From contig CAXHJY010000494.1 in the NCBI GenBank assembly GCA_964016885.1, positions 1 to 61,582 of the forward strand: DNA of 61,582 nucleotides, written 5' to 3'. A program made the position numbers and the translations under genes. Positions 31,928-59,600 of the stretch are shown piece after piece (within the stretch, counting starts at the first letter, position 1; every line of letters starts with the position of its first letter). The notes beneath the pieces were generated by a model. It was not told where the DNA came from. It ran no database searches and saw nothing but the letters and a program-made list of their open reading frames with translations. The stretch is from Eledone cirrhosa (lineage: Eukaryota).

Positions 31928-32042
31928 TGATATATATAAATATAATGTATATAAATATAATGTATATAATATATATATATGTATAATGTATATATATATG
32001 TATATATATATATATACATTATACATATATATATATATATAT

Positions 32043-34025
32043 GTTCTATATGTGACGGTATTTTAACGATAGTTATAGCTCTGATTCATCTGAATTATTG
32101 AGCCCTCTGCCGCTCATATCGAATTTCGTTTTTCGTGAACTCGTGCGCCGATTTTTCGATACTCGATCTTTCTAATATATTTAGCTCTGGACATAGCTAT
32201 CCACCAGTTAATTTTATTGCTCATTTTTTGTCGATTCTATTGAGTGATGAATAGCTTTTGTTTTATTTTAACATGTCTATTGAGCACTCTAATTCGATAT
32301 GTGTATTTCCACATTCACTCGAATTGTTTTCGCGGATATAGGGGTCATCTCCCTTGTCTAATGCCATGTGCGTTTTTCACCGCTAGTTGACTCCTTTGCC
32401 GCCAGGATAAAACTCGTTGACAACGTAAACTCCGTTCCACTTATTCTAGTAGGCTTTTATATTTATATGTGAGCTGATAGAGTACTGTCTAAGGATTTAC
32501 AGAAACCCATGAAGCTAGATTTAACACCTTTCTAGTGGGTCCGGGTATGATTTTACATTCATTTAAATTATTGACGTATTGTTTTATTGATATTTTTTAT
32601 CTGTTTGGCCCGAATCTTCCTTTATCGATTTTAAATCGTATGGTTGATTGTAGACTTGTTCTATATGTGACGGTATTTTAACGATAGTTATAGCTCTGAT
32701 TCATCTGAATTATTGAGCCCTCTGCCGCTCATATCGAATTTCGTTTTTCGTGAACTCGTGCGCCGATTTTTCGATACTCGATCTTTCTAATATATTTAGC
32801 TCTGGACATAGCTATCCACCAGTTAATTTTATTGCTCATTTTTTGTCGATTCTATTGAGTGATGAATAGCTTTTGTTTTATTTTAACATGTCTATTGAGC
32901 ACTCTAATTCGATATGTGTATTTCCACATTCACTCGAATTGTTTTCGCGGATATAGGGGTCATCTCCCTTGTCTAATGCCATGTGCGTTTTTCACCGCTA
33001 GTTGACTCCTTTGCCGCCAGGATAAAACTCGTTGACAACGTAAACTCCGTTCCACTTATTCTAGTAGGCTTTTATATTTATATGTGAGCTGATAGAGTAC
33101 TGTCTAAGGATTTACAGAAACCCATGAAGCTAGATTTAACACCTTTCTAGTGGGTCCGGGTATGATTTTACATTCATTTAAATTATTGACGTATTGTTTT
33201 ATTGATATTTTTTATCTGTTTGGCCCGAATCTTCCTTTATCGATTTTAAATCGTATGGTTGATTGTAGACTTGTTCTATATGTGACGGTATTTTAACGAT
33301 AGTTATAGCTCTGATTCATCTGAATTATTGAGCCCTCTGCCGCTCATATCGAATTTCGTTTTTCGTGAACTCGTGCGCCGATTTTTCGATACTCGATCTT
33401 TCTAATATATTTAGCTCTGGACATAGCTATCCACCAGTTAATTTTATTGCTCATTTTTTGTCGATTCTATTGAGTGATGAATAGCTTTTGTTTTATTTTA
33501 ACATGTCTATTGAGCACTCTAATTCGATATGTGTATTTCCACATTCACTCGAATTGTTTTCGCGGATATAGGGGTCATCTCCCTTGTCTAATGCCATGTG
33601 CGTTTTTCACCGCTAGTTGACTCCTTTGCCGCCAGGATAAAACTCGTTGACAACGTAAACTCCGTTCCACTTATTCTAGTAGGCTTTTATATTTATATGT
33701 GAGCTGATAGAGTACTGTCTAAGGATTTACAGAAACCCATGAAGCTAGATTTAACACCTTTCTAGTGGGTCCGGGTATGATTTTACATTCATTTAAATTA
33801 TTGACGTATTGTTTTATTGATATTTTTTATCTGTTTGGCCCGAATCTTCCTTTATCGATTTTAAATCGTATGGTTGATTGTAGACTTGTTCTATATGTGA
33901 CGGTATTTTAACGATAGTTATAGCTCTGATTCATCTGAATTATTGAGCCCTCTGCCGCTCATATCGAATTTCGTTTTTCGTGAACTCGTGCGCCGATTTT
34001 TCGATACTCGATCTTTCTAATATAT
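32043..34025. repeat. 615-bp tandem repeat, about 3.2 copies, inside (TA)n
   Basis: Unit start GTTCTATATGTGACGG at 32043, 32658, 33273 and 33888. No differences seen in the segments compared by eye. Confidence 0.97.
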
Positions 34026-34122
34026 ATATATACATATATATATACATGCCTATGTATGTATCGCAAACAGGCACATACACACACCCACACACCAACATGC
34101 GCATTTATACATATATAATATA

Positions 34123-58969: not shown

Positions 58970-59600
58970 TCTGAGGACGATAAAAAAGTACCATGCTAGT
59001 ACTGAAGACGATAAAATAAGTACCAGTTTAGTCTGAGGACGATAAAATAGTACCAGTCTAGTACTGAAGACGATAAAATAGTACCAGTCTAGTACTGATG
59101 ACGATAACAAAAAGTACCAGTCTAGTACTGAGGACGATAAAAAAGTACCATGCTAGTACTGAAGACGATAAAATAAGTACCAGTTTAGTCTGAGGACGAT
59201 AAAATAGTACCAGTCTAGTACTGAGGACGATAAAAAAGTACCATTCTAGTACTGAAGACGATAAAATAAGTACCAGTTTAGTACTGAGGACGATAAAATA
59301 AGTACCAGTTTAGTCTGAGGACGATAAAATAAGTACCAGTTTAGTCTGAGGACGATAACAAATTACCAGTCTCGTACTGAGGACGATAACAAATTACCAG
59401 TCTAGTTCTGAGGACGATAAAAAGTACCCTTGTAGTACTGAGGACGATAAAAAAGTACCATTGTAGTACTGAGGACGATAAAAAAGTACGAGTATAGTAC
59501 TGAGGACGATAAAAAAAAGTACCAGTCTAGTACTGAGGACGATAAAAAAAGTACCAGTCTAGTACTGAGGATGATAAAAAAAGTACCAGTTTAGTACTGG
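58970..59600 (+). repeat. ~31-bp minisatellite (about 20 units) derived from a SINE body
   Basis: Unit AGTACTGAGGACGATAAAA(T)AAGTACCAGTCT. Preceded by the SINE B box CAGTTCAAATCTCGCC and followed by GGGTCGAT. Confidence 0.88.

What the first reader, a model, noticed from the sequence alone, without database searches (positions are those of the whole stretch)
32043..34025. Apparently identical 3.2 x 615-bp array inside (TA)n: possible circular-template insertion
Seen: complex, CpG-containing, ORF-poor sequence repeated at exactly 615-bp spacing, with a 138-bp partial fourth unit, and both ends merging into (TA)n. Each unit has an imperfect HHR-like segment (32474-32541): CTGATAGA...GAA-ACCCA..CTAGA...TCTAG-TGGGT-C, with a good stem III and GUC site but a non-canonical core and poor stem I. 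Inference: a recent product of reverse transcription around a circular RNA (retrozyme-like), or rolling-circle copying, using the same (TA)n targets as the PLE cassettes.
Basis: partly seen in the sequence, partly recalled or inferred. Interest (0 to 1): 0.78.

Follow-up and report, generated by a model that had tools for sequence, protein, structure and literature searches.

The report
Circular-RNA retrozyme riding a Penelope transposon
This 615-base repeat is one of over 750 insertions of a non-coding mobile element that sits in AT microsatellites as fragments or long chains; each unit holds a predicted self-cutting RNA of unusual shape, and each chain was likely copied round and round from one circular RNA, probably by a Penelope-type transposon's enzyme, which would make a long-proposed mechanism testable.

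Summary
Real and not an artefact: 3.23 identical 615-bp units in (TA)n, one of 757 exact 3' junctions genome-wide. The 3' end is fixed (29 of 30 loci), 5' ends are scattered (41 bp to 26.6 units), some with inverted arms. Arrays carry array-wide private variants; single-unit changes are strand-biased (T>C 14, A>G 0); three of four arrays with a repeatedly miscopied site end at that site, one as predicted beforehand. This fits repeated reverse transcription of one circular template. A young Penelope-like element in the same genome shares the 13-nt 3' motif, the U3-A8 core, the (TA)n target and the 'tail' anatomy: a likely partner. Class known (non-LTR retrozyme); the ribozyme variant, partner link and genomic rolling-circle evidence appear new. 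Cleavage, expression and circles are untested.

The parts
31930..32042 (.). left (TA)n target flank; 5'-truncated end of the insertion joins here
32042..34025 (+). insertion: 3.23 identical 615-bp non-coding units; + strand is the inferred RNA strand
32412..32546 (+). predicted type I hammerhead, unit 1: stem I 32412-16 with 32542-46; core TTGACAA 32417-23 (U3-A8); extra nt 32424; long helix II 32425-32500; extra A 32501; GAAA 32502-05; helix III to 32540; predicted cut after C 32541
33027..33161 (+). same predicted hammerhead, unit 2 (cut after 33156)
33642..33776 (+). same predicted hammerhead, unit 3 (cut after 33771)
34013..34025 (+). fixed 3' end / inferred priming site CTTTCTAATATAT (also internal at 32168-80, 32783-95, 33398-410); predicted single-stranded between two hairpins; identical to the end of the Penelope-like element
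32068..32071 (+). unit position 26-29 (GATA loop): second end site, used mostly by inverted arms at other loci; not used as an end here
34022..34047 (.). right (TA)n-like target flank
18416..22422 (-). older, interrupted copy of the candidate partner: Penelope-like element (RT, C-terminal GIY-YIG) with inverted 5' pseudo-LTR, between (TA)n runs, 3' end CTTTCTA
18550..18588 (-). minimal type I hammerhead motif of the Penelope-like element, U3-A8 core TTGAAAA (second copy on + at 22316 in the inverted arm)

Best explanation
It is a young insertion of a non-coding repeat family (a non-LTR retrozyme) that likely spreads as a self-cut, closed 615-nt RNA which a Penelope-like reverse transcriptase probably copies round and round from a nick in (TA)n. 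Steps. (1) A tandem locus is transcribed on the + strand (inferred). (2) The U3-A8 type I hammerhead in each unit cuts after GUC at unit position 499, freeing monomers that are ligated to circles (motif shown, activity and circle inferred). (3) The GIY-YIG nuclease of a Penelope-like element nicks (TA)n, and the target 3' end primes on the unpaired CUUUCUAAUAUAU segment (fixed 3' end shown; enzyme inferred from the shared 13-mer, core variant, target and tail). (4) The RT reads the same monomer repeatedly, displacing its own cDNA, up to at least 26 turns, and stops at random, at damaged template bases, or at the free 5' end of unclosed monomers (length distribution and variant patterns shown; cause inferred). 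(5) The 5' end joins the other (TA)n flank, sometimes through a second arm primed at unit position 29, giving an inverted arm without the ~105-nt tail (anatomy shown).
For: Fixed 3' end at unit 132-138 against (TA)n in 29 of 30 loci found by unit sequence, the 30th ending at an assembly gap; scattered 5' ends. 757 junctions; 94 insertions taken in list order on C1: 35 shorter than one unit, longest closed 26.6 units. 45 arrays of 3 or more units (379 units): 25 haplotypes, 22 seen once, 15 arrays with a variant in all units and in no other array; 58 single-unit variants in 44 arrays, none shared at the same offset. Single-unit substitutions T>C 14 vs A>G 0, G>A 9 vs C>T 3 (p 0.0009; same bias on both genomic strands). 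Dispersed same-site variants: G445T in 5 of 13 units, array ends at 446; T353C 3 of 6, ends at 353; A386T 5 of 26, ends at 383-387 as predicted before fetching. Hammerhead: unconstrained fold gives the three-way junction; UUGAnRA in 19 of 20 relatives not chosen on it, G10.1-C11.1 20 of 20; 7 of 33 pairs change on both sides, 0 of 500 shuffles reach the score. 5' ends enriched 0-25 nt after the cut: pre-registered 7 of 34, p 5e-4. Partner: shared CTTTCTAATATAT at the end and at the internal junction, CTTTCTA at 1 of 1,705 other TA-run borders; U3-A8 core; 8,768 junctions; five copies 99.3-99.9% identical over 775 codons of RT + GIY-YIG; inverted arms end 61 nt short in 11 of 13.
Against: No RNA, circle or cleavage was observed. 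Rfam finds no hammerhead at E<=10. The extra A before G12 is not among the variants I read of; 4 of 20 relatives have U3-G8; the isolated motif folds no better than shuffles (z -1.27); RNAalifold on the most diverged set recovered stems I and III but not helix II; covariation counts are inflated by relatedness. 8 of 9 predicted Xenopus retrozyme dimers did not cleave in vitro. The 5'-end cluster centres near 515, not 500, so a start site or AT microhomology could cause it. One of four dispersed-variant arrays (L186, a homopolymer indel) does not end at its site; 8 variants sit in two adjacent units, so some local duplication or conversion occurs; L050 is mosaic beside a gap. Unit and Penelope-like element share no other homology; other (TA)n-targeting families exist; older subfamilies end in TATTCTA(C/T) rather than the 13-mer.
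Confidence: 0.8

Rival explanations
1. Penelope-driven insertion, but from long linear read-through transcripts of existing homogeneous arrays; no circle is needed.
For: Explains fixed 3' ends, 5' truncation and per-unit copying errors; two haplotypes hold 12 and 8 of 45 arrays, as if from few masters; an initiator-like TCATTT (consensus recalled) lies at unit 517-522, in the 5'-end cluster.
Against: Cannot make variants that are private to one array yet fixed in 11-26 units (L097, L107, L172, L192, L200); no single-unit variant is shared in register; cannot explain one site miscopied in scattered units with the array ending there.
Confidence: 0.07
2. The RT copies a linear self-cut monomer and jumps end to end on the same molecule each turn (telomerase-like repeat addition), with no covalent circle.
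Against: Junctions are seamless: single-unit variant positions show no pile-up at 499/500; jumps between molecules would give mosaic arrays, seen in 1 of 45 (L050, beside a gap).
Confidence: 0.06
3. Short (about 1.x unit) insertions later expanded in place by unequal exchange or slippage, as an ordinary satellite (the route proposed for Xenopus retrozymes).
For: Keeps ends and array-wide variants; 8 variants lie in two adjacent units; proposed in print.
Against: Single-unit changes are strand-biased like first-strand copying errors (p 0.0009); singletons outnumber adjacent pairs 58 to 8; the longest arrays are among the least diverged, while all 11 copies under 95% identity are at most 1.7 units; both arms of three inverted insertions exceed one unit.
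Confidence: 0.03
4. DNA rolling-circle element (Helitron-like or extrachromosomal DNA circle).
For: Young copies end in CTAA after a hairpin and sit in AT; a damaged DNA circle would also give same-site errors.
Against: CTRR is not kept (older ends CTAC, CTAT, TACT); no TC follows it; a hammerhead is kept down to ~60% identity; inverted arms and tail match the Penelope-like element. Helitron end rules are recalled.
Confidence: 0.03
5. Assembly or library artefact (chimeric or rolling reads).
For: Perfect identity of units in the window; a few loci touch gaps (L050, L082, L198, L268).
Against: Hundreds of dispersed loci with locus-specific haplotypes and subfamilies from 99% to ~60% identity; a contig of another run crosses the unit-unit junction with two differences.
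Confidence: 0.01

Closest known systems
Metazoan non-LTR retrozymes (Cervera and de la Pena 2020, PMC7229834; Li, Clavereau and Pollet 2026, bioRxiv 10.64898/2026.07.22.740005)
   Same: Non-coding tandem repeats, low GC, one type I hammerhead per unit; proposed life cycle of circle and multimeric cDNA, Penelope-like elements suspected as helpers.
   Different: 615-nt unit (typical 150-450; up to 972 reported); U3-A8 core with ~75-nt helix II and stable helix III instead of a canonical motif; not derived from the pseudo-LTR of the candidate partner; carries a partner-pointing motif, whereas PMC7761336 says these repeats show none; dispersed young arrays with one fixed end.
Non-autonomous Penelope-like elements such as MRC1 (Chlamys; Craig et al. 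2021, PMC8557442)
   Same: Multicopy head-to-tail insertions, 5' truncation, inverted 5' arm, tail at one end, microsatellite target, likeness to an autonomous family at the 3' end.
   Different: Chlamys mostly lack canonical hammerheads; here the shared end is only 13 nt, the tail is 103-109 nt rather than 30-40, and the helper has a C-terminal nuclease.
Minimal hammerheads of Penelope-like elements (Cervera and de la Pena 2014, PMC4209133)
   Same: Type I, extra nucleotide between 9 and 10.1, G10.1-C11.1, short helix I, U3-A8 variant (reported in Schistosoma Cercyon elements).
   Different: Helix II there 6-8 bp and helix III minimal (dimeric); here helix II spans ~75 nt, helix III is 10 bp, and an extra A precedes G12.
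Neptune/Nematis-type Penelope-like elements (candidate partner)
   Same: RT followed by GIY-YIG with a CX4CX2C linker, pseudo-LTR with hammerhead, microsatellite target (features from PMC8557442 passages).
   Different: Clade not tested by tree; the sampled copies hold two overlapping frames (407 and 775 codons).

Membership tests
non-LTR retrozyme | short non-coding unit in head-to-tail tandem copies | tested here: met
non-LTR retrozyme | type I hammerhead motif in every unit | tested here: met
   variant motif; pattern found 3,456 times, control 3; no Rfam hit
non-LTR retrozyme | GC below 45-50% | tested here: met
   36%
non-LTR retrozyme | self-cleavage | not testable with these tools
   only indirect: 5' ends enriched just 3' of the site
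non-LTR retrozyme | accumulates as circular RNA | not testable with these tools
   indirect one-template pattern; no RNA data laid that could show it
non-LTR retrozyme | no LTR, tRNA primer site or polypurine tract | not tested
   no LTR anatomy seen; primer site not searched
non-LTR retrozyme | target-site duplication, when present longer than 4 bp | tested here: inconclusive
   hidden by (TA)n flanks
type I hammerhead ribozyme | three helices round the junction | tested here: met
   helix II not recovered by RNAalifold on the most diverged set
type I hammerhead ribozyme | canonical core CUGAnGA | tested here: not met
   family has UUGAnAA (16 of 20) or UUGAnGA (4 of 20), one with G5 changed; the canonical form with this stem III gave 5 unrelated hits; U3-A8 is a published variant
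type I hammerhead ribozyme | G10.1-C11.1, GAAA, NUH cut triplet | tested here: met
   20 of 20 for G-C; an extra A precedes GAAA in all 20; GAAA was part of the pattern that found 13 of them
type I hammerhead ribozyme | tertiary contact between helix I and loop II | not tested
   no descriptor or model run
non-autonomous Penelope-like element | fixed 3' end, 5' truncation, partial tandem | tested here: met
non-autonomous Penelope-like element | inverted 5' arm with a tail at one end only | tested here: met
   7 of 12 position-29 ends are inverted arms, 3 direct, 2 unresolved; no inversion in 93 unbiased stretches, so rare
non-autonomous Penelope-like element | 3'-end similarity to an autonomous family | tested here: met
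   13 nt only
non-autonomous Penelope-like element | mobilised in trans by that family's protein | not testable with these tools
   inferred
Helitron | conserved 3' CTRR and 5' TC ends (recalled) | tested here: not met
Neptune/Nematis clade (partner) | C-terminal GIY-YIG with CX2-5CxxC linker | tested here: met
Neptune/Nematis clade (partner) | RT phylogeny | not tested
   no reference set fetched

The most novel reading that the evidence does not exclude
A currently spreading animal retrozyme with a new hammerhead form (U3-A8 core, ~75-nt helix II) whose genomic copies are natural recordings of single RNA circles being reverse-transcribed up to 26 times (16 kb) by an identified Penelope-like RT, primed telomerase-style on an unpaired UA-rich segment; the first direct genomic evidence for the circular-template model of Penelope and retrozyme integration, and a class of ribozyme elements that standard descriptors miss.
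Probability: 0.5. Interest if true: 0.85.

Novelty: new variant of a known kind. Interest (0 to 1): 0.72.

Why it matters
The circular-template model for Penelope-like elements and animal retrozymes was proposed in 2014 and 2020 but, in what I read, rests on tandem anatomy and on circles seen in RNA; a 2026 preprint offers local satellite expansion instead, and a 2020 review says retrozymes carry no motif naming their helper. This family offers data that separate the models (array-wide private variants, strand-biased single-unit errors, arrays ending at their miscopied site), a candidate helper with a shared priming motif, and a defined substrate (615-nt circle, (TA)n primer, RT-nuclease) for the in vitro system the field says it lacks. 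It implies an RT with at least 16 kb of strand-displacing synthesis, and a hammerhead form invisible to Rfam, so such elements may be under-counted.

Tried and rejected
Rfam at gathering score (window) and E<=10 (unit; partner end): no hammerhead. Coding or rolling translation: 8-18 stops per turn in all six frames. Homology of the unit to the partner's pseudo-LTR or other fetched DNA: only the 13-mer. An RT gene attached to a family copy: none among fetched loci; hits were separate nearby elements. Back-splicing or lariat origin: a conserved donor-like GGTRWG follows the cut site, but no acceptor abuts it, so it would not regenerate the unit (by eye). Minus strand as the RNA: weaker fold and fewer consistent changes. 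Sequencing runs: no RNA holder listed; small shares not used. Raw-read support was not obtained. The repeat finder was swamped by microsatellites. Earlier-findings look-ups returned nothing. PMC5785218 (Lunse et al., PLE hammerhead variants) is not held and may describe similar cores. L031 (indel-rich small contig), L109 and L110 (overlapping, two insertions) were left out of the variant counts; L050 was left out of the spectrum test.

Full report
Observation. The array has period 615 without a mismatch from 32042 to 34025; GC 36%, 27 CpG per unit; (TA)n on both sides; no frame longer than 62 codons round the circle. The host is a 3.0-Gb genome in 1,796 contigs; I take it for an octopod from a recalled likeness of its SINEs, not from a test. 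Unit positions (u) below count from 32043.

A dispersed family with one fixed end. The unit search gave 234 matches from 31 of 535 candidates scored. I fetched the 29 other loci visible in the listing: with the window, 29 of 30 end at u132-138 (CTTTCTA then TA repeat), the 30th at an assembly gap; 5' ends are scattered; three have an inverted 5' arm ending at u29. The exact 3' junction occurs 757 times, control 0. Of the first 100 junctions listed on C1, 94 not already held were taken in order: 22 of 54 and 13 of 40 are shorter than one unit; the range is 41 bp to 26.6 units (16.35 kb), with two arrays still open at 19 units. None of those 93 stretches has an inversion. Ends at u29 number 12: 7 inverted arms, 3 direct, 2 unresolved. 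Older subfamilies at 73-82% (561 pattern hits) and about 60% identity end in the same phase against (TA)n. In an independent run a 645-nt contig with two differences crosses the unit-unit junction; 615+30 is what a closed loop gives in a 31-mer graph (inference). This anatomy is that of target-primed reverse transcription by Penelope-like elements (PLEs): 5' truncation, partial tandems, inverted arm, tail at one end, microsatellite bias (PMC8557442, passages).

One template per array. In 45 arrays of three or more full units (379 units) there are 25 all-unit haplotypes, 22 seen once; 15 arrays carry a variant fixed in all units and found in no other array, including arrays of 26, 18, 18, 14 and 11 units. 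The 58 single-unit variants (44 arrays, L050 left out; 2.6e-4 per base) are never shared at the same offset; two recur at different offsets. Their spectrum is T>C 14, A>G 0, G>A 9, C>T 3 (23 vs 3, p 0.0009; young arrays 18 vs 2; both genomic strands alike) (earlier version). That is the wobble error pattern of a polymerase reading the + strand (inference from general knowledge), so each unit was copied separately, yet from one monomer. Four arrays show one site varying in scattered units. L083 (G445T, 5 of 13) ends at u446; L054 (T353C, 3 of 6) ends at u353; for L097 (A386T, 5 of 26) I wrote down an end at 386 plus or minus 2 before fetching and found 383-387 depending on how the variant is read; L186 (homopolymer indel, 7 of 13) ends elsewhere, near u271. 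A damaged base on one circle, misread on some turns and finally blocking, explains this; it does not by itself tell RNA from DNA. Against: 8 variants lie in two adjacent units, and L050 is mosaic next to a gap.

The ribozyme. Rfam finds none. Folding 20 relatives (73-99% identity; alignment A1) showed that CTGATAGA lies in the 3' arm of a long hairpin and that a three-way junction forms further out: stem I u370-374 with u500-504, core UUGAcAA u375-381, one extra base, helix II u383-458, an extra A, GAAA u460-463, helix III u463-498, GUC at u497-499. The unconstrained fold of the window segment is this junction, though its energy is not unusual (z -1.27). The core half UUGAnRA is kept in 19 of 20, N7 takes all four bases, position 8 is A in 16 and G in 4, G10.1-C11.1 is invariant. 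33 pairs: 90.9% paired, 7 with changes on both sides, 0 of 500 shuffles reach the score, slid controls 30-43% (relatedness inflates this). With ~60% relatives (chosen by the core pattern) pair 10.2-11.2 is UA 9, CG 8, UG 2 and 10.3-11.3 AU 8, GC 6, UA 1, unpaired 5, but RNAalifold alone did not recover helix II there. The pattern occurs 3,456 times, control 3. U3-A8 and the extra base between 9 and 10.1 are described for PLE hammerheads (PMC4209133, parts 1-2 of 4 read); I saw no report of so long a helix II or the extra A. The whole + strand folds better than shuffles (z -3.99; minus -2.60; 20 shuffles), and the priming segment is mostly unpaired in the 13 relatives folded. Unclosed cut monomers fit; a start site near u519 or AT microhomology are alternatives.

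The likely helper. The window holds an interrupted PLE at 18416-22422. Its family has 12,460 candidates, many with a 775-codon frame holding RT and GIY-YIG (the RT score is just under Pfam's cut-off), five copies 99.3-99.9% identical, 8,768 3' junctions. It ends in the same CTTTCTAATATAT, which also stands at its internal pseudo-LTR junction; CTTTCTA borders 1 of 1,705 other TA runs in 96 stretches. Its pseudo-LTR has a minimal hammerhead with the same U3-A8 core (no Rfam hit). In 30 copies taken in order, 13 have inverted arms, 11 ending 61 nt short of the 3' end; 5 are truncated 2-23 nt after its predicted cut and 13 at 198-216 nt. No other homology was found, and other (TA)n-bordering repeats exist, so the pairing is likely (about 0.65), not shown.

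Comparison and novelty. It works like, and meets the tested features of, a non-LTR retrozyme (PMC7229834, passages); cleavage and circles are untested. The circle-to-multimer model is in print as a proposal; the 2026 preprint (parts 1-3 of 5 read; supplements not seen) links retrozymes to pseudo-LTRs and suggests local expansion; PMC7761336 (passages) says no motif names the helper. Searches listed no paper on this family or on such per-array evidence; PMC13282606 (Octopus repeat annotation, passages) has no 'ribozyme' or 'retrozyme'; PMC6765202 was seen as passages; PMC5785218 was not held. The library lacks most subscription journals and repeat databases were not searched.

Verdict. New variant of a known kind; best explanation 0.8 (insertion by a PLE-type RT about 0.9, single-monomer template about 0.85, active hammerhead about 0.65, this partner about 0.65); interest 0.72.

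Noticed in passing
L130:1059-4516 (also L131-L134): The sampled young Penelope-like copies hold two overlapping frames (407 and 775 codons) meeting at an A-run, while the older window copy reads through that point; frameshifting, splicing or a defective subfamily are all open. No frame above 938 codons among the 150 scored.
   Followed up: partly
L223-L252: 13 of 30 short copies of the Penelope-like element start 198-216 nt from the 3' end, perhaps marking its transcription start.
   Followed up: partly
window 32545-32550 (unit 503-508): A splice-donor-like GTAAG/GTGAG/GTATG overlaps the 3' strand of stem I in all subfamilies; Penelope of Drosophila has an intron end at helix I.
   Followed up: partly
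window 16325-16434 (+): U6 snRNA copy, 106 bits.
   Followed up: no
window 44077 (+); also L053, L055, L062, L080, L088, L098, L104, L125: Canonical minimal hammerheads (CTGAnGA...CGAAAC) of other, probably Penelope-related, families.
   Followed up: no
window 16209 and 39429 (-): Two related CTGATGAA...GAAA motifs in a shared repeat, possibly another hammerhead family.
   Followed up: no
window 58971-59600: About 20 copies of a ~31-bp tandem unit, each with CTGAnGA followed by CGATAAAA.
   Followed up: no
window 23749-24306 (-): 185-codon frame that looks like the C-terminal part of a LINE RT; no Pfam hit.
   Followed up: no
L094:5561-7877: A second Penelope-like family, about 50% identical in protein to the candidate partner.
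   Followed up: no
L077, L082, L083, L085, L097, L107, L172, L186: One haplotype group (A80G G95T T183A with changes at 284 and 392) accounts for most arrays above 11 units, as if template sequence or age sets the number of turns.
   Followed up: partly
unit position 164 (L050, L052): Three different bases replace A164 in different arrays; possible hot spot.
   Followed up: no
runs X1-X10: Half or more of the unit's words are held by runs of seven coded organisms in six studies; three laid runs had pieces at 99-100% identity. Close relatives or transfer between hosts cannot be told apart here.
   Followed up: partly
L079:5900-6015 and L121 5' flank: Insertions of the unit abut another repeat with a GTCGAAACGGC hairpin, itself head-to-head inverted in L079.
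   Followed up: no
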